Positions 553-7,016 of a stretch of DNA of 64,000 nucleotides are shown in pieces (position 1 is the first letter of the stretch; each line of letters starts with the position of its first letter). The notes below the pieces were generated by a model. The model was not told the origin of the DNA, made no database searches, and saw only the letters and a program-made list of their open reading frames with translations. The translations under genes were made by a program, and so were the position numbers. The DNA comes from a virus, in the IMG/VR virus record IMGVR_UViG_3300001041_000002, positions 37,420 to 101,419 of that record; one strand, 5' to 3'.

Positions 553-1023
553 ATGAAAGCAAAATTAAGTAATTATTATCGTAAGCCAGGTGGAACTATG
601 GTTTTCGTGTACATCGTTATTGGTACAGACGTTGAATTGGCAAATTTCAAAGCCGCTAAAGAAAAAGAAGTTACCGGCAGTGGTAAATCAGCTTATGTTG
701 AAAACGAGGCCCGACAACCACTATTCTTCAGTACTCGTCCATTAAGCACCAATCGTGCAGAGTTAATACCATTGACCATCACTACCACTGGTAGGGTTGT
801 TGCCGACGATTTAACCAAAGTGTTGACGCAAGAGGCCAAGCTTGATGATTATATCATGCAAGAAAAAGCCAAAATTATGGCTAAAGCCGCATTGTCCGGT
901 GGGTTGAACAACTTAACCGATCTTACTTCAACTCGTCCGGTTGCCACAGAGCAAGAGGTTGAAGAGGTATTAAACGGCGCAATTGACACTCCGGTTGAGG
1001 TTGCTGACAATGTGCCATCATAA
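553..1023 (+). CDS. hypothetical early protein
   Basis: 156-aa ORF with an A-rich Bacteroidota-style leader. Confidence 0.75.
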   Translation: MKAKLSNYYRKPGGTMVFVYIVIGTDVELANFKAAKEKEVTGSGKSAYVENEARQPLFFSTRPLSTNRAELIPLTITTTGRVVADDLTKVLTQEAKLDDYIMQEKAKIMAKAALSGGLNNLTDLTSTRPVATEQEVEEVLNGAIDTPVEVADNVPS

Positions 1024-1031
1024 GAAGTAAA

Positions 1032-1084
1032 ATAATATGGGTGCCGCAAAGGATTAAATGGACAGCAAATCCAGCCCATATTAT
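1032..1084 (+). ncRNA. stem-closed structured element A
   Basis: ATAATATGGGT(1032-1042)/GCCCATATTAT(1074-1084) terminal stem; inner GGATT/AATCC hairpin; directly 5' of tRNA-Ile. Confidence 0.5.
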
Positions 1085-1090
1085 GATCAT

Positions 1091-1164
1091 TGCCAATTAA
1101 CTCAGTTGGTCAGAGTTCTAAGCTTATACCTTAGCGGTCACTGGTTCAAGTCCAGTATTGGCAA
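1091..1164 (+). tRNA. tRNA-Ile(UAU)
   Basis: Acceptor TGCCAAT/ATTGGCA, D stem ACTC/GAGT, anticodon arm CTAAG-CTTATAC-CTTAG, T arm ACTGG-TTCAAGT-CCAGT, discriminator A; CCA not encoded. Confidence 0.92.
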
Positions 1165-1288
1165 CAAATAATAACATTTTAAAACAATAACTATGAATAC
1201 AGAATTAATTGCATTTTTAATAGGTGTTGTTATAGGCATATTTATAGCAATATTATGGATATCGGAAAAAAAATAACACTCCAGCGGC

Positions 1289-1546
1289 ATGAAAGACTAT
1301 GAAAAGAAAATTAATGATTTTTCATTTAGCTATGCATCATCATTTAAAGAAAATAATGATCAAAGATTAGTTAGAGATGCAGTAAGGGCTGGGGCCAAGT
1401 CAGAAGCAGCTAAAGAATTTCATCAGCAAGGTATGCATACTGAAGAAAATATGTATTTGAATATGCAATACTACATGGAATATTGTGAAAGAAATGGATA
1501 TACAACTCCAATGGATTGGATTAAAAATCATAAACATTTTAAATGA
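1289..1546 (+). CDS. hypothetical protein
   Basis: 85-aa ORF. Confidence 0.65.
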   Translation: MKDYEKKINDFSFSYASSFKENNDQRLVRDAVRAGAKSEAAKEFHQQGMHTEENMYLNMQYYMEYCERNGYTTPMDWIKNHKHFK

Positions 1547-1869
1547 AAAAACTCTTCACCATAATAATTATGACATTGATATTATCATCATGTGCTAGTT
1601 TTAATAAAGCGGCTAAATACCCTAAAGGCACACAAGAAAACACGGATTGGAGGATTAATAAGTTATGAGTAAATTCAATCCATATTGCGGAGAAGAATAT
1701 GAATATCACTCAATATCAGATGATGAATGGTGAAGTTCGTATTTAGAATGGTGTGATGAAAATCTTAATGATGATTAACCATGAAATCATATACTTGCGC
1801 TATATGTAAATGTACATATACGGGGATAGTTTGTCCTAATTGCGGATCAATAGTAACATCAGAATAATT

Positions 1870-2517
1870 ATGAATAGAAAACATAAAGTAATACTGCTTT
1901 CAGACAATAGAAATGCAAGATATAAAGACATTGTAACATCTCCTAGATACAAGAATAAAATACAGCTATTTGGGACATTTGAAAATAGTTATGAAAACGA
2001 ATGTAAAACTCAACATCTTTACATTATTTCTGATAAAGAAATTAAAGAAGGTAATTGGTTTGTTTCAAGCAAAACAATACATAAATGTACATACATTATT
2101 GAAGATACTAACGAAATAATGTGTAATATATGTGATGGAACTGGTTTTATTCAACTTGGAATAAAAACGAATAAATGTCATAAAATTATAGCCTCGACCA
2201 ACACCTCACTTAACCTTCCACAACTTTCTCAATCATTTATTACTAAATATATTGAAGAATATAACAAAAGTAATATTATTACCGAAGTTATGGTTGAATA
2301 TGATGAAGAACCAACTATTGATGGTGATTCTGACAAGTACGCCGAGTTACATATCAACTCTAAAGACAATACTATAATCATTAAAGATGCCAAGACTAAT
2401 TGGAGTAAAGACGAAATAATTGTTTTAATTAACAAGTTTGCAGAAAGATTTATGCCACACACAGACAAGGTGTTTGTTAAAGAAGCAATAAATAATTGGA
2501 TTAATAGAAATACATAA
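1870..2517 (+). CDS. hypothetical protein with CxxCxGxG zinc-finger-like motif
   Basis: Likely ATG at 1870; CNICDGTG motif. Confidence 0.7.
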   Translation: MNRKHKVILLSDNRNARYKDIVTSPRYKNKIQLFGTFENSYENECKTQHLYIISDKEIKEGNWFVSSKTIHKCTYIIEDTNEIMCNICDGTGFIQLGIKTNKCHKIIASTNTSLNLPQLSQSFITKYIEEYNKSNIITEVMVEYDEEPTIDGDSDKYAELHINSKDNTIIIKDAKTNWSKDEIIVLINKFAERFMPHTDKVFVKEAINNWINRNT

Positions 2518-2520
2518 CAT

Positions 2521-2629
2521 AACTATCAGGAGCCTAGATTTTGAATTTTTACGGTTAGTTTTAGGTTTTTTAAGGTTTGTTCATAGATGTCAATAAGTAC
2601 TTCATGTGTTTTATTGGCTCCTGGTAGTT
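2521..2629 (+). ncRNA. stem-closed structured element B (U-rich loop)
   Basis: AACTATCAGGAGCC/GGCTCCTGGTAGTT, 14 bp with one G.U pair; no ORF. Confidence 0.6.
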
Positions 2630-2640
2630 TTTAAAAACAT

Positions 2641-2814
2641 AAGACATAAATATCTGCATAAGACTCAAATGCGAGTTGAAAGGAGTTGCATAATGATTAG
2701 AATTGATCACTATTTGAGGCTGCAAATTTTATGCGCAGAATCCTGCTCTAAGTTGCAAATTAACAGGTTGGCTTAAGTAACCATCTAAAATTCTCGCTTA
2801 GATATTTATGTTTT
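2641..2814 (+). ncRNA. stem-closed structured element C
   Basis: AAGACATAAATATCT/AGATATTTATGTTTT, 15 bp with one G.U pair; internal hairpins. Confidence 0.6.
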
Positions 2815-2823
2815 TAATAATAC

Positions 2824-2926
2824 AACAACTAATACTACTTAGTCTGTTTTTATTGAAGCTATCAATCTAAACTTAAAGTACTGTCTGGTAACTCAGTGAT
2901 CCTGTATAGTCAGACTATTAGTTGTT
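2824..2926 (+). ncRNA. stem-closed structured element D
   Basis: AACAACTAAT/ATTAGTTGTT plus AGTCTG/CAGACT after a bulge. Confidence 0.55.
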
Positions 2927-2934
2927 TATAAGAT

Positions 2935-3051
2935 AATAACAATAACACTGTTTACGTATGGTTCGATTCCACGGGGCTCAAAATAGTGAAATAGTAATAA
3001 AGTAACTATAAAAGGGCAGCGCAATAGCTAAGAGGATAGCTTATTGTTATT
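2935..3051 (+). ncRNA. stem-closed structured element E with tRNA-like T-loop
   Basis: AATAACAATAA/TTATTGTTATT stem; GGTTCGATTCC at 2960-2970; GCTA-AGAGGA-TAGC hairpin at 3027-3040. Confidence 0.55.
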
Positions 3052-3216
3052 TTTAAAGATAATAACGCTCGAAATCACGAGTGTTTCTGTAATAAAGATA
3101 TAAACCGGTCAGCATCTAGTATGGATTTATCCAGAAGTTTCAATCCCGTCAGATATTGTATAAAAGCAGTTTTGGAGTGATTAAATGACTTAATTTAACA
3201 ATTAAAATAAAACATC

Positions 3217-3489
3217 ATGAGAGTAAATCAAGAATTAAGAATTCGTTGGAATCACAGTAGAAGTACTCGTGAAACAGTGTGTCAGATTTTAGATAACGAT
3301 GATAATGTCGTTGCAGCCGGTATTGCAAGAGCGTTCGTTAAAGACCCATTTTGTAAGGCCAAAGGCAGAAATGCTTCATTAACTAAAGCCTTAAAAGCTG
3401 AGAATGCTCATGGAGTAAAAAAGCTTAATAAAGAGGCCAGAACTCAGGTGTGGGCTGTTTGCCGTGAAAACCGTGTAAAACTATACTAA
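3217..3489 (+). CDS. hypothetical phage protein
   Basis: 90-aa ORF with a D-x-F-x-K-x-x-G-R motif seen in small phage proteins. Confidence 0.7.
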   Translation: MRVNQELRIRWNHSRSTRETVCQILDNDDNVVAAGIARAFVKDPFCKAKGRNASLTKALKAENAHGVKKLNKEARTQVWAVCRENRVKLY

Positions 3490-3665
3490 TGTCACAGAGA
3501 ATTCAAAACATATTATCAGCTCCAGCCAAGGTGCCAGTAATGATAAAGAAAGGTCGCAAAATGGTTCAGTTGACTAAGACTACTAAGAGCGGTCAGGTTA
3601 AGAACGTGTGGGAAGATAACCCAGACAGTAAAATCGTTAAACAAGTTAAACATTGGAAAGTCTAA
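3489..3665 (+). CDS. small basic hypothetical protein (58 aa)
   Basis: TAATG overlap; MSQRIQNILSAPAK... Confidence 0.6.
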   Translation: MSQRIQNILSAPAKVPVMIKKGRKMVQLTKTTKSGQVKNVWEDNPDSKIVKQVKHWKV

Positions 3666-3748
3666 TCATGTACACAAAAGAAGAATTAACTAAAATTATA
3701 GATGCCAGGATCAGAGATGATCAGAGTATTTTATACACAGAATAATTA

Positions 3749-3868
3749 AATAAATATAGCAAGTAGGATTAGACTCAAATCCAATACACATCGCTGCACA
3801 ACAACACTGAAAAGTGGCGGATCGGTTGAGTAACCACCGTAAACCTATGTGTTCTTGCTATATTTATT
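3749..3868 (+). ncRNA. stem-closed structured element F
   Basis: Perfect 15-bp AATAAATATAGCAAG/CTTGCTATATTTATT stem; inner CACT-GAAA-AGTG GNRA hairpin and GGAT-TAGACTCAA-ATCC. Confidence 0.65.
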
Positions 3869-4008
3869 AATATAAAATAATTACAATTGCCAGAGAGTTG
3901 GAATGGCTGAAGCCCGCTAGTACCGAAACGGGGCTGTAACAATAGAGCTAGCTTGAGAGATTGAGCTAGCTTGTTTTAAAAACATTAGCAAATTATAAAA
4001 TAATAAAA

Positions 4009-4197
4009 ATGGGATCAAACAGTAACAGATCTTTCTCAAAAGAAGAGAAAATTGGATATTATGCCCAAAAAATTTCATCAACAAGAGATACATCAAGCTC
4101 ATCTTTTCAATTGTCTACTGGGGCTAAAATTCGTGGAGAAATGGGTGTTAAAAAAGGCAATGCATTCATAGCTGCAATAAAAAATGCAAGTAGATAA
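4009..4197 (+). CDS. hypothetical protein
   Basis: 62-aa ORF with an A-rich leader. Confidence 0.6.
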   Translation: MGSNSNRSFSKEEKIGYYAQKISSTRDTSSSSFQLSTGAKIRGEMGVKKGNAFIAAIKNASR

Positions 4198-4229
4198 AAC
4201 AATCATTAACAAATTATAAAACAAAACAA

Positions 4230-4709
4230 ATGAAAAAACTAATTATTGGGTTATTATTTCTCACAATATCTTAAGTAGGATATACAGAGAATAAAGTGGA
4301 CGATGCAATTACCGCTGTAGATAACACTACAGAGATAGTGAATAAATCCACAAAAGAAGTGAATGCAACAGTTGTTTATTTCACAGAGAAGCTTGAAGAA
4401 CTCGCTAAGTCACTAAAAGTGCCAGCAGAACATGTTTATCAAATATTAGTTAAACAACAAATAGTGCAAGCATATACATCATTATTTGCTTTCTTTGGAT
4501 TATTATTATTTTGTTTAATTATAACCTATTTTTTTATAAAAGCCGATGGATTTGAAGATGATTCTTTTATAAATATTAGTGGATTTATATTAATATTAAT
4601 ATCAGGGATATTGGTATTAACTTGTGGAGCCAATTTTATTTTTAATGGATTTAGCGGTATTATCAACCCAGAATATGGTGCTATTAAAGAGATAATGTCG
4701 TTGTTTTAA
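4230..4709 (+). pseudogene. membrane protein with an in-frame TAA in its signal peptide (or a sequencing error)
   Basis: ATG4230 MKKLIIGLLFLTIS* (TAA 4272-4274) VGYTENKVDD... is in frame with ORF 4296-4709, which has two TM segments. Confidence 0.55.
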
Positions 4710-4717
4710 TAATAACA

Positions 4718-4908
4718 TAAAATACCCGATGAAGATAAACAATAGGGAAGATCGGTGAATTAACACCCATACGGCGGAGGATACGAACAAACGCAACCTA
4801 TAGTCATGCTAAGATGACGATGTTTATTGTAATACAGCCAAGGAGATAGTTAAAACTTCCCATTATTGTCAATTAAGCTGTTCCACTTAGAAATGGACGG
4901 GTATTTTA
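4718..4908 (+). ncRNA. stem-closed structured element G
   Basis: TAAAATACCCG/CGGGTATTTTA stem; internal GGGAAG/CTTCCC, GGTG/CACC, GTCAT/ATGAC, ACAGC/GCTGT and TCCA/TGGA pairings; directly 5' of tRNA-Tyr. Confidence 0.6.
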
Positions 4909-4915
4909 AATAAAT

Positions 4916-4996
4916 GGATAGACTGGTAAGTGGGTGAAATCAGCAGACTGTAAATCTGTCGCTTCGGCTATGGGCGTTCAAATCGCTCTCTATCCA
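4916..4996 (+). tRNA. tRNA-Tyr(GUA)
   Basis: GGATAGA/TCTATCC acceptor, GCAGA-CTGTAAA-TCTGT anticodon arm, long variable arm with GC-TTCG-GC, T loop TTCAAAT, discriminator A. Confidence 0.92.
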
Positions 4997-5019
4997 CAAA
5001 TCAAATTTTATGTAATATA

Positions 5020-5436
5020 ATGATATTAAAAACGAAAAACCCAGCATATATGTGTTGGAAGATGATGAAAAATAGATGCTCTAATCCAAATGATCCAAAA
5101 TTTAAAAACCATGGAGGCAGAGGAATAACTGTATGTAAAGAGTGGGTTGAATCATTTGATAGATTTATCCAAGACATAGGAGAAAGACCCGAAGGATATA
5201 CTATAGACAGAATTGACAATAACTTAGGATATTGCAAGGAAAATTGTAAATGGTCATCATATACAGAACAAAACAATAATAAAAACAACAATATACGATT
5301 AACATATAACGGTGAATGTAAAACTGTTTCTGAGTGGGCAAAACACTTAAATATGAATGTACAAACACTATTTTGGAGGATAAATAATAATAAAACGGTC
5401 TCTGAAATATTATTTAATCATACCCAGAAACAATAA
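5020..5436 (+). CDS. HNH-family homing endonuclease
   Basis: GGRGITVCKEW...TIDRIDNNLGYCKENCKW...EQNNN motif; inserted between two RNA genes. Confidence 0.85.
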   Translation: MILKTKNPAYMCWKMMKNRCSNPNDPKFKNHGGRGITVCKEWVESFDRFIQDIGERPEGYTIDRIDNNLGYCKENCKWSSYTEQNNNKNNNIRLTYNGECKTVSEWAKHLNMNVQTLFWRINNNKTVSEILFNHTQKQ

Positions 5437-5461
5437 TAATATTAAAATATACAATTTTTGT

Positions 5462-5735
5462 TGACGCTTATCGAAAGACCGAGTGAGACTCGATGGCAGT
5501 AATCGACTCCTCCACTTACGCACACCAATTGAACGCTAACCGGTCGCGTTAGAACCGTTCGATGGCAACTATTGAGTTGTAAAATAAGGGGGAGAAATAG
5601 TATTGATCAGCGGAATGATTAAATAAGAAGAGAAAATTGTAGCTCTCAAAGGGCAAAACTGTTGAACTTTACCGTGAAGTTGCTATTGCAGCTTAATTAG
5701 GTACGTTTCCTAGGGTGTACGAAAACACCCTAATC
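5462..5735 (+). ncRNA. ssrA: circularly permuted (two-piece) tmRNA
   Basis: Acceptor piece first: T arm TCGAT-GGCAGTA-ATCGA then CTCCTCC-A (5490-5514). Intervening segment 5515-5587. Coding piece starts GGGGGAG (5588), giving a G3.U70 pair. Tag frame 5652-5696 GKTVELYREVAIAA*. Outer ends are approximate. Confidence 0.85.
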
Positions 5736-6139: not shown

Positions 6140-6355
6140 ATGAATCGAATTTGGAAAACTAAGGTTGAAATTCAGGTTGATAAAATTGTTTATCCAATAA
6201 ACAGCCTTTTAATAGCAGAAGATGTTGAAGTTTTTTATTTATTACATAAAGATGATCAGCTCGAAGATGTAACTTATATTGATCTTCAGGATTTTTCTGA
6301 TGTAATGGATGAACTTGGTATTGACGGAATTGACTTAATCTATTCTAATGAATAA
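6140..6355 (+). CDS. small acidic hypothetical protein
   Basis: Likely ATG at 6140. Confidence 0.6.
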   Translation: MNRIWKTKVEIQVDKIVYPINSLLIAEDVEVFYLLHKDDQLEDVTYIDLQDFSDVMDELGIDGIDLIYSNE

Positions 6356-7016
6356 AAATTACACTCATGATTTTAGCTCGGCTTCGATTAAACACTTAAT
6401 TGAGGCTGAGTTTTATCAAAAAGCTGGGGAGATGCTTGGCAATGCTGCATCAACAGTCACAATAGTTACAGGGCCGGATTATCAAAGACATCTTGACAAT
6501 GTTAATAAATATATTAAATGTAATAAAACTCGTATTTGTGAGATTAATACTGATATATTTATACACATATATACAGGGTGTAAAGATAAACCTAAAGTAT
6601 CTGTTGTTAATAATTCAGTTGAGTTGTATGGCTCCAGATTCATTGATTGTGATCTAACATGCACTTCTGATCTAGCAGTAATTAGGAATACTTTGTTTAA
6701 ACAAATTGATGTCCAAGCTGGATTTTCATGTGTAAATAAGGCTTTTATATTAAGCATTGGACTCAGGGGTTCTGAAAAAATGAAATACACTGAAATATTT
6801 AATAATATAATTGGATTACTTGGTGCATCTATACAGTCGCCAACTCCGCTATCTCAAAAGCAAATCATTAAATGCGATTTTGCCAACACGAAAAGTCCTG
6901 TTTATCAAAATAGACTTAAATTTCAGATGCTTAAGGGTAGGATTAAAGAATATATTTGTTATTCTTATAATGCTGGAGGAGGCCCAATGTTAACATGTTT
7001 AATTATTTACAAATAA
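6348..7016 (+). CDS. hypothetical protein, possibly a degenerate class I SAM-methyltransferase fold
   Basis: TIVTGP...RICEIN...FIDCDLTC strand pattern; weak. Confidence 0.5.
   Translation: MNKNYTHDFSSASIKHLIEAEFYQKAGEMLGNAASTVTIVTGPDYQRHLDNVNKYIKCNKTRICEINTDIFIHIYTGCKDKPKVSVVNNSVELYGSRFIDCDLTCTSDLAVIRNTLFKQIDVQAGFSCVNKAFILSIGLRGSEKMKYTEIFNNIIGLLGASIQSPTPLSQKQIIKCDFANTKSPVYQNRLKFQMLKGRIKEYICYSYNAGGGPMLTCLIIYK

What the first reader, a model, noticed from the sequence alone, without database searches (positions are those of the whole stretch)
1032..4908. Array of unrelated RNA modules, each closed by a 10-15 bp terminal stem and interleaved with tRNA genes
Seen: at least seven non-coding elements (1032-1084, 2521-2629, 2641-2814, 2824-2926, 2935-3051, 3749-3868, 4718-4908) have long AT-rich inverted repeats joining their two ends. 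Four are packed head to tail with about 10-nt spacers. The interiors differ in sequence but are mostly structured. G.U pairs in the stems of A, B and C favour + strand RNA rather than DNA palindromes. Two elements sit directly 5' of tRNA genes. Inference: a cassette-like small-RNA operon in which the shared terminal stem serves as an excision or protection signal (e.g. RNase III or a phage nuclease), releasing a panel of different ncRNAs such as decoys, anti-defence RNAs or regulators. This is my strongest candidate for an undescribed system.
Basis: partly seen in the sequence, partly recalled or inferred. Interest (0 to 1): 0.85.

Follow-up and report, generated by a model that had tools for sequence, protein, structure and literature searches.

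The report
Phage island of stem-closed small RNAs
Next to its two tRNA genes and a tmRNA gene, a groundwater phage has at least seven gene-free stretches that each fold into an RNA clamped shut by a long end-to-end helix; one belongs to a widespread phage RNA family normally wedged between tRNA genes, so the clamps probably mark RNAs that are cut out and stabilised like tRNAs, but their functions are unknown.

Summary
All seven closing stems exist (11-16 bp). They bracket ORF-free segments and are far more frequent than in dinucleotide shuffles: 4 non-overlapping stems in 2518-3216 against 0.66 expected, 0/500 shuffles.

Element C (2641-2814) is not an orphan. It is a divergent member of a roughly 180-200-nt phage RNA family. 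A model built without it scores it 62 bits. The family's 3' third is the Rfam motif freshwater-1. I found the family in 63 IMG/VR contigs, and its helices covary strongly. It sits inside tRNA arrays: 26 of 37 copies start 0-3 nt after a tRNA and 13 end 3-8 nt before one. A and G show the same downstream spacing, 6 and 7 nt before tRNA-Ile and tRNA-Tyr.

The best reading is therefore a tRNA/tmRNA island in which non-tRNA RNAs occupy tRNA-like slots. Closing helices define and protect their ends. RNase III excision is unlikely.

A, B, D, E, F and G have no detectable homologues, so for them only folding and stem statistics apply. No RNA data exist and function is unknown.

Earlier notes of this scan report similar arrays and the full-length freshwater-1 RNA in other phages. 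Precedents are T4 RNAC/RNAD and GOLLD/ROOL. Verdict: real, and a new variant of a known kind.

The parts
1032..1084 (+). Element A: 53-nt hairpin module with an 11-bp closing stem (1 G.U), 6 nt upstream of tRNA-Ile
   Evidence: Fold (z -1.98); stem listed. Contains CCGCAA and CAGCAA motifs. No homologue found.
1091..1165 (+). tRNA-Ile (anticodon UAU)
   Evidence: ARAGORN; Rfam tRNA 65.7 bits
2521..2629 (+). Element B: 109 nt, 14-bp closing stem (1 G.U), U-rich interior
   Evidence: Fold (z -3.09); shuffle test. No homologue.
2641..2814 (+). Element C: 174 nt, 16-bp closing stem (2 G.U). Divergent member of the full-length freshwater-1-type phage tRNA-array RNA family (core 2653-2792).
   Evidence: Rfam RF02979 29.8 bits, E 3e-4, below gathering score 72. 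Leave-one-out model R2 62.1 bits, E 8e-12, over all 155 positions. Family covariation.
2824..2926 (+). Element D: 103 nt, 11-bp closing stem extended by a second 6-bp helix
   Evidence: Fold (z -2.33). No homologue.
2935..3051 (+). Element E: 117 nt, 11-bp closing stem, interior with a T-loop-like GGUUCGAUUCC segment; the weakest fold
   Evidence: Fold (z -1.26). No tRNA or YrlA match at E<=10. No homologue.
3749..3868 (+). Element F: 120 nt, 15-bp perfect closing stem; the strongest fold
   Evidence: Fold (z -4.57, 0/200 shuffles). A >=14-bp stem in 3746-4008 is reached by 2/500 shuffles. Not detected by R1 or R2.
3881..3939 (+).
   Evidence: Fold (whole stretch 3869-3985, z -2.86)
3945..3984 (+). 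Terminator-like 12-bp hairpin followed by UGUUUU; likely end of the F transcription unit
   Evidence: Fold; missed by the consensus scan
4718..4908 (+). Element G: 191 nt, 11-bp closing stem, multi-branched, 7 nt upstream of tRNA-Tyr
   Evidence: Fold (z -2.47); stem test on 4710-4915 reached by 13/500 shuffles. No homologue.
4916..4997 (+). tRNA-Tyr (anticodon GUA)
   Evidence: ARAGORN; Rfam 45.2 bits
5020..5436 (+). HNH homing-endonuclease gene inserted between tRNA-Tyr and the tmRNA
   Evidence: PHROG phrog_3377, E 1.8e-48
5454..5696 (+). Circularly permuted (two-piece) tmRNA closing the RNA island
   Evidence: Rfam RF04321 52.4 bits, above gathering score 47

Best explanation
Window 1030-5700 is the RNA island of a complete 101-kb phage. 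It holds two tRNAs, a permuted tmRNA and at least seven non-tRNA structured RNAs on the + strand, interleaved with a few small ORFs.

Each non-tRNA module is a separate folding unit whose 5' and 3' ends pair in a long closing helix.

Inferred steps:
1. The modules are transcribed together with their neighbours.
2. They are released by host enzymes: RNase P at the 5' end of the tRNA that follows A and G, the tRNA 3'-end machinery where a tRNA precedes, and a single-strand A/U-specific endonuclease (RNase E/G or Y type) in the 8-11-nt A/U linkers between B, C, D and E.
3. They are trimmed back to the closing helix, which blocks exonucleases and keeps neighbouring modules from misfolding.
4. The released RNAs act in trans as independent stable RNAs.

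Shown: the stems, their excess over chance, and C's membership of a phage-restricted family that occupies tRNA-like slots with a closing helix whose sequence varies between lineages.

Not shown: transcription, the cuts, stability, or any function.
For: - Stems are real and enriched.
- G.U pairs in A, B and C fit the + strand, which carries all neighbouring genes and tRNAs.
- C matches model R2, built without it, at 62.1 bits over its full length.
- The family has 32 consensus pairs, 25 with compensatory changes. It is 95.4% paired, with covariation score 0.554 against 0.171 in shuffles (0/500) and 0.04-0.10 in slid controls.
- All 63 IMG/VR pattern hits match R2. In 185,579 cellular genomes 15 pattern hits were found, about the roughly 17 I estimate for chance, and only one matches the model.
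- Family copies are flush with tRNAs on the same strand: 26/37 have the upstream gap at -1 to 3 nt and 13/37 have the downstream gap at 3-8 nt.
- The family's closing helices average 11.5 bp against 6.9 bp in shuffled flanks, and differ in sequence between lineages.
- A and G lie 6 and 7 nt before tRNAs, the same spacing.
- Phages related through the adjacent 225-aa gene also have ORF-free gaps enriched in closing stems. For example L004 3925-4682 has 5 against 1.19 (0/300), and L001 has two modules directly before its tmRNA.
Against: - No RNA data exist: no RNA run is listed for this phage.
- A, B, D, E, F and G have no homologues, so neither conservation nor covariation supports them. E's fold is no better than shuffles (z -1.26).
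- In this phage C is flanked by B and D, not by tRNAs, so the tRNA-punctuation logic is transferred by analogy.
- No NCCA or other known RNase P determinant follows the stems.
- Strand assignment for D to G rests only on context.
- The training set for the family was collected with a motif taken from C's own Rfam hit, so the 3' part of the match is partly circular.
Confidence: 0.6

Rival explanations
1. RNase III (or phage nuclease) cassette excision. Each closing stem is itself the cleavage site, as in the T7 early-mRNA processing hairpins.
For: The stems are long and regular and are separated by short linkers. D's stem can stack on a second 6-bp helix to give about 17 bp.
Against: The stems are 11-16 bp, shorter than the roughly 20 bp of classical RNase III substrates (my knowledge, not tested). 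In C's family the closing helix ends within 0-3 nt of a tRNA 3' end and 3-8 nt from a tRNA 5' end. tRNA processing therefore already sets both ends without a cut inside the helix. Cutting inside the helix would also remove the protection.
Confidence: 0.1
2. Cis-acting mRNA elements: intercistronic stabiliser, insulator or regulatory structures that act on the flanking small ORFs rather than released RNAs.
For: The modules lie between small ORFs on the same strand. A 16-bp helix (3075-3090 with 3257-3272) would enclose the start codon of ORF 3217. F is followed by a terminator-like hairpin.
Against: C's family sits between tRNAs with no adjacent ORF in most phages. Four modules in a row (B to E) over 530 nt are more than a single downstream ORF would need. 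Interiors are large and multi-branched.
Confidence: 0.15
3. Decayed tRNA or tmRNA genes: the modules are pseudogene remnants of a former tRNA array whose acceptor stems survive as inverted repeats.
For: E has a T-loop-like GGUUCGAUUCC followed by a sequence resembling an acceptor 3' strand. The island holds only two intact tRNAs, whereas other phages that carry C's RNA family have up to 28.
Against: No tRNA, tmRNA or YrlA match at E<=10 for any module. C is a conserved non-tRNA family. Stems of 11-16 bp are longer than a 7-bp acceptor stem. Pseudogenes would not keep perfect 15-bp helices, as F does.
Confidence: 0.07
4. DNA-level features: replication-origin or recombination palindromes, or miniature inverted-repeat mobile elements.
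For: The region is A/T-rich with many inverted repeats. The cumulative GC-skew minimum lies about 2.5 kb upstream. A homing endonuclease lies in the island.
Against: G.U pairs in three stems are mismatches at the DNA level. The arms are 30-170 nt apart, not hairpin-like. The modules share no sequence with each other or with other parts of the genome, so they are not repeated mobile elements. C is an RNA family with covariation. The skew switch is not at the array.
Confidence: 0.05

Closest known systems
freshwater-1 RNA motif (Rfam RF02979; I attribute it to the 224-motif survey PMC5737381, whose main text does not mention it) and the full-length ~180-200-nt RNA that contains it
   Same: Element C has the CCUGCUCU-stem-UGCA-stem-AACAGG helix, the following hairpin and the UAAAA tail. 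Upstream it has the P2/P3 helices and the UGAAAG junction of the full-length family. It is closed by a long terminal helix like the other members.
   Different: C scores only 29.8 bits against Rfam's gathering score of 72. Its central P4-P6 domain is rearranged. It is flanked by other stem-closed modules rather than by tRNAs. The Rfam entry covers only 62 nt of the RNA. The function of the family is unknown.
[quoted passage not shown]
   Same: Non-tRNA small RNAs encoded among phage tRNA genes, of unknown role.
   Different: T4 has two such RNAs among eight tRNAs (the count is from my knowledge). Here there are at least seven with two tRNAs and a tmRNA. I made no sequence comparison, and expression here is unproven.
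GOLLD (RF02032) and ROOL RNAs, encoded in phages and prophages often near tRNA islands (PMC5737381, PMC12286853)
   Same: Phage-borne structured RNAs of unknown function linked to tRNA islands. One phage that carries C's family also carries GOLLD (L022).
   Different: GOLLD and ROOL are 400-800 nt and form homo-oligomeric cages. The modules here are 53-191 nt and match neither family.
Bacterial and phage Y RNAs (YrlA), partners of Ro60
   Same: A long helix formed by the two RNA ends closes a module with tRNA-like pieces. This resembles E, and loosely A.
   Different: There is no YrlA match at E<=10. The complete phage genome has no TROVE or DUF2828 gene.
tRNA punctuation of polycistronic transcripts (mitochondria) and tRNA-like 3'-end formation (from my knowledge)
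   Same: RNA ends are set by RNase P and the tRNA 3'-end machinery cutting at adjacent tRNAs. This is what the 0-8-nt gaps in the family imply.
   Different: Here tRNAs would delimit non-coding RNAs in a phage, and most modules in this window abut each other rather than tRNAs.

Membership tests
Rfam freshwater-1 (RF02979) | Covariance-model score at or above the curated gathering score (72 bits) | tested here: not met
   C scores 29.8 bits, E 3e-4 to 9e-4. Canonical members score 72.6-87.7.
Rfam freshwater-1 (RF02979) | CCUGCUCU...UGCA...AACAGG helix with internal loop, then a hairpin and a UAAAA tail | tested here: met
   Alignment to the model; an exact match to the 18-base pattern used.
   R2 62.1 bits, E 8e-12, positions 1-155. 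This is comparable to the most divergent IMG/VR members, L023 at 66.2 and L055 at 50.5. Caveat: the training set was collected with C's own 3' motif.
Full-length freshwater-1-type tRNA-array RNA | 5' domain: P2 helix, P3 hairpin, UGAAAG junction | tested here: met
   Aligned. C shares the variant P3 loop with L016.
Full-length freshwater-1-type tRNA-array RNA | Central P4-P6 domain with a conserved apical loop | tested here: inconclusive
   In C, P4 has a non-canonical pair and the P5/P6 region is replaced by a different hairpin.
Full-length freshwater-1-type tRNA-array RNA | Long closing helix joining the two ends | tested here: met
   16 bp in C. Best closing stems in family flanks are 7-19 bp, mean 11.5 against 6.9 in shuffles.
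Full-length freshwater-1-type tRNA-array RNA | Flush position between tRNA genes on the same strand | tested here: not met
   C is flanked by B (11-nt spacer) and D (9-nt spacer). In the family, 27/37 copies have a tRNA within 10 nt.
tRNA | Cloverleaf recognised by ARAGORN or Rfam RF00005 | tested here: not met
   Only 1091-1165 and 4916-4997 are called. No module matches even at E<=10.
Y RNA / YrlA with Ro60 | Match to the YrlA model, and a Ro60 (TROVE) or DUF2828 gene | tested here: not met
   No Rfam match at E<=10. PF05731 and PF11443 are absent from the complete phage genome. A host-encoded partner cannot be excluded.
CAGCAA-handle RNAs (described only in earlier notes of this scan) | 7-bp closing stem, about 3 bases, then CNGCAA | tested here: inconclusive
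   A fits with stem AAUAUGG, GUG, CCGCAA, and has a second CAGCAA. The loose pattern has 141 matches in the genome, and the partner protein is absent.
RNase III processing hairpins (T7 type) | About two turns (~20 bp) of mostly continuous double helix (from my knowledge) | tested here: not met
   Closing stems are 11-16 bp.
Miniature inverted-repeat mobile elements | Several similar copies in the genome bounded by the same terminal repeats | tested here: not met
   No similarity between modules or elsewhere in the genome.
T4 RNAC/RNAD | Sequence or structure homology to the T4 RNAs; stable RNA detected in infection | not tested
   No reference sequence was compared. No RNA data exist for this phage.

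The most novel reading that the evidence does not exclude
The closing helix plus a short A/U linker may be a portable packaging format. It would let phages insert arbitrary effector RNAs into the tRNA-processing pathway and exchange them horizontally as cassettes. In this phage most tRNA slots of an ancestral array would now hold a panel of at least seven unrelated trans-acting RNAs. Six of these would be new RNA classes.
Probability: 0.3. Interest if true: 0.7.

Novelty: new variant of a known kind. Interest (0 to 1): 0.5.

Why it matters
Phage tRNA islands are usually read as codon-usage helpers. This window adds evidence that they are also landing pads for structured non-coding RNAs that use the host's tRNA-processing route.

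It also shows that the catalogued 62-nt freshwater-1 motif is only a third of a larger RNA. Its end helix varies in sequence between lineages, and it occupies a tRNA-like slot.

If the six orphan modules are real RNAs, a 101-kb phage devotes about 1 kb to RNA effectors of unknown function. That would be a compact system in which to ask what such RNAs do.

Tried and rejected
**Homologue searches for A, B, D, E, F and G: nothing significant**
- blastn against INPHARED phages matched only the tRNA and coding parts.
- Sensitive blastn and nhmmer against 88 fetched loci found nothing.
- Exact-core scans of IMG/VR for G and F gave 0 hits.
- A scan for C's variant P3 in IMG/VR and in the metagenome collection returned only L016 and its duplicate.

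**Closer relatives of the phage**
- Relatives exist as proteins: P0002 and P0003 are 77% and 73% identical to ORF 3217-3489.
- Scans with ORF 553-1023 and ORF 6348-7016 also found nothing.

**Other negative or uninformative results**
- No RNA holder is listed among public runs. Only four DNA runs from one groundwater study hold the stretch.
- F as a paralogue of C: rejected. The shared 10-mer and 3' hairpin are not enough, and R1 and R2 do not detect F.
- E as YrlA or a permuted tRNA: no model match and no Ro60-type gene.
- Alternative genetic codes hiding ORFs in the gaps: rejected.
- Strand choice from folding energy: uninformative, because both strands fold similarly.
- The sigma-70 promoter scan was no better than shuffles.
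- Pfam found nothing for ten neighbouring ORFs. PHROGs named only an HNH endonuclease and a membrane protein.
- The main text of the 224-motif paper does not mention freshwater-1, and no supplement is held.

Full report
**Context**

The window is the right-hand 64 kb of a complete 101,419-bp virus record with direct terminal repeats. It is 34% G+C and uses the standard code: 87% is covered by ORFs of >=80 aa and alternative codes add nothing. Public runs that hold the stretch are DNA runs from one groundwater metagenome study.

Genes in the first 41 kb of the window are on the + strand. The cumulative GC-skew minimum lies about 2.5 kb upstream of the array. The island contains:
- tRNA-Ile(UAU) at 1091-1165 and tRNA-Tyr at 4916-4997;
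- an HNH endonuclease gene at 5020-5436;
- a circularly permuted tmRNA at 5454-5696 (RF04321, 52.4 bits against a gathering score of 47).

**The observation**

Each of the seven elements folds with its two ends paired as the outermost helix.

| Element | Coordinates | Closing stem | G.U pairs |
|---|---|---|---|
| A | 1032-1084 | 11 bp | 1 |
| B | 2521-2629 | 14 bp | 1 |
| C | 2641-2814 | 16 bp | 2 |
| D | 2824-2926 | 11 bp | 0 |
| E | 2935-3051 | 11 bp | 0 |
| F | 3749-3868 | 15 bp | 0 |
| G | 4718-4908 | 11 bp | 0 |

Fold z-scores range from -1.26 (E) to -4.57 (F).

Stems of this kind do occur elsewhere in this A/T-rich genome: 201 of >=10 bp in 101 kb. A control was therefore needed. Dinucleotide-preserving shuffles gave these results:
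- The ORF-free block 2518-3216 has 4 non-overlapping stems of >=11 bp against a mean of 0.66 (0/500 shuffles reach 4).
- Region 1000-5000 has 12 against 3.26 (0/500).
- For stems of >=14 bp, region 1000-5000 has 4 against 0.3 (0/500).

B to E are separated by A/U-rich spacers of 11, 9 and 8 nt. A ends 6 nt before tRNA-Ile and G ends 7 nt before tRNA-Tyr. The G.U pairs in A, B and C fit a + strand RNA. For D to G the stems are perfect, and both strands fold about equally well, so their strand is inferred from context only.

I found one further small stem-closed module at 3881-3939. A terminator-like hairpin follows it at 3945-3984.

**What element C is**

A permissive Rfam scan gave one sub-threshold hit inside C: freshwater-1 (RF02979), 29.8 bits, E about 3e-4. 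I turned the conserved letters of that match into an 18-base pattern and scanned IMG/VR. It returned 63 contigs.

In every one the pattern lies in a much larger conserved unit of about 180-200 nt. Its layout, 5' to 3', is:
1. a terminal helix;
2. ACAG, pairing with a distal CUGU;
3. a hairpin;
4. an invariant UGAAAG junction;
5. a long helix carrying two further hairpins;
6. the freshwater-1 part;
7. often one more hairpin;
8. the return strand of the terminal helix.

Thirty-one non-redundant sequences gave an RNAalifold consensus of 32 pairs, 25 of them with compensatory changes. On the core alignment 95.4% of cells are paired. The covariation score is 0.554, against 0.171 in column shuffles (0/500) and 0.04-0.10 when partners are slid.

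Canonical members reach Rfam's gathering score, but only over the 62-nt 3' domain. The catalogued motif is therefore a fragment of this RNA.

A model built without the window's sequence (R2) scores C at 62.1 bits, E 8e-12, over all 155 positions. That places C at the divergent end of the family, near L023 (66.2) and L055 (50.5). C's nearest relative is L016, which shares its unusual P3 loop.

One caveat applies. The family was collected with C's own 3' motif, so only the 5' half of the match is fully independent.

**Where the family lives**

ARAGORN on the 60 loci scanned shows the RNA embedded in tRNA arrays on the same strand. Of 37 non-redundant copies with an identified closing helix:
- 26 begin -1 to 3 nt after the 3' end of a tRNA;
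- 13 end 3-8 nt before the next tRNA.

The closing helices differ in sequence between lineages. They average 11.5 bp, against 6.9 bp in shuffled flanks.

The same pattern scanned over 185,579 bacterial and archaeal genomes gave 15 hits. I estimate about 17 by chance for 596 Gb. Only one hit, a 2.9-kb contig of a lake MAG, matches the model. In the collections searched, the family therefore turned up almost only in phage contigs.

Five phages related to this one through the neighbouring 225-aa gene lack the family entirely. C was thus probably acquired as a cassette.

**What this says about the array**

In the family, the two ends of the RNA coincide with the ends that tRNA processing would leave. 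The only constant feature of the terminal helix is that it pairs. This is the signature of an end-defining, end-protecting helix, not of a specific recognition site.

A and G sit before tRNAs at the same 6-7-nt distance as family members sit before theirs. B to E abut each other across short A/U-only linkers, which are the kind of single-stranded site cut by RNase E/G or Y-type enzymes (inference).

Relatives of this phage also show ORF-free gaps enriched in closing stems:
- L004 3925-4682: 5 against 1.19 (0/300);
- L002 7566-8032: 4 against 0.93 (0/300);
- L003 6110-6684: 3 against 0.65 (2/300);
- L001: two modules directly before its tmRNA.

One module family is shared between L003 and L004. 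The architecture therefore recurs in the lineage although the sequences do not.

**What remains unsupported**

A, B, D, E, F and G have no homologue in any collection I could reach (see Tried and rejected). They rest on folding, stem statistics and absence of ORFs.
- E is the weakest. Its fold is not better than shuffles, and its T-loop-like segment matches no tRNA, tmRNA or YrlA model.
- The phage has no Ro60-type gene.
- A contains CCGCAA and CAGCAA motifs that resemble a 'handle' described in earlier notes of this scan. The pattern is unspecific here, with 141 loose matches in the genome.
- No RNA data exist, so transcription, cuts and stability are all inferred.

**Function**

Nothing measured bears on function. 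In 17 of the 31 aligned family members the P6 loop carries one of three different palindromic cores (UAGCUA, UAAUUA, UGGCCA). The P7 loop is an invariant UGCA.

This partly agrees with earlier notes of this scan that propose self-association. In C itself the P6 region is replaced, so the point does not transfer cleanly.

**Comparison with the known**

The closest precedents are:
- GOLLD and ROOL, encoded in phages and prophages 'often near tRNA islands' (PMC12286853; PMC5737381);
- the freshwater-1 motif itself.

Earlier notes of this scan, unverified except where I tested them, report the full-length freshwater-1 RNA and similar stem-closed arrays in other lake phages. I reached the same reading of C independently before seeing those notes.

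The new element here is the degree. A mid-sized phage has an RNA island with at least seven non-tRNA modules against two tRNAs, four of them tiled head to tail without intervening tRNAs.

**Verdict**

The feature is real. I class it as a new variant of a known kind, with moderate interest.

Noticed in passing
window 5454-5696: The permuted tmRNA passes Rfam's gathering score (52.4 against 47) in a 5-kb scan. The whole-window gathering scan did not report it, presumably because of filter settings.
   Followed up: partly
window 3075-3090 with 3257-3272: A 16-bp helix (with G.U pairs) would enclose about 165 nt including the start codon of ORF 3217-3489. It could be an eighth module or a translational control element. 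The whole-stretch fold z-score is only -1.23.
   Followed up: partly
window 3945-3984: A strong 12-bp hairpin followed by UGUUUU looks like an intrinsic terminator ending the F unit. The consensus terminator scan missed it.
   Followed up: partly
window 1665-1779 and 4231-4275: Two short reading frames continue in frame past a stop codon: TGA after ...DDEW, and TAA after a signal-peptide-like start. Genome-wide statistics give no support for stop-codon reassignment.
   Followed up: partly
L013 (two copies), L020 (two copies), L064: A small module of about 60 nt lies next to tRNAs: a 7-bp stem, UUA or a similar triplet, then CAGCAAA, with the stem covarying between phages. It matches the 'CAGCAA handle' described in earlier notes of this scan.
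   Followed up: partly
L003 6439-6501 and L004 3933-4037: Two distant relatives share a stem-closed module ending in AAGGUGCAACCUUGUA plus the closing strand (77% identity over 57 nt).
   Followed up: no
L016 10950-11370 (minus strand): C's closest relative sits after unusually long tRNA-like genes (96-98 nt, ARAGORN tRNA-Thr and tRNA-Ser) and a further tRNA-like sequence that was not called. These may be tRNAs with insertions.
   Followed up: no
L022 11836-12243: A phage that carries the full-length freshwater-1 RNA in its tRNA array also carries a GOLLD RNA (317 bits) and a tmRNA.
   Followed up: no
window 3190-3216, 3976-4008, 4199-4230 and many loci: A recurring A-rich leader of the form TTAACAAATTATAAAA... 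precedes start codons here and in distant relatives. It is probably a shared promoter or leader motif.
   Followed up: no
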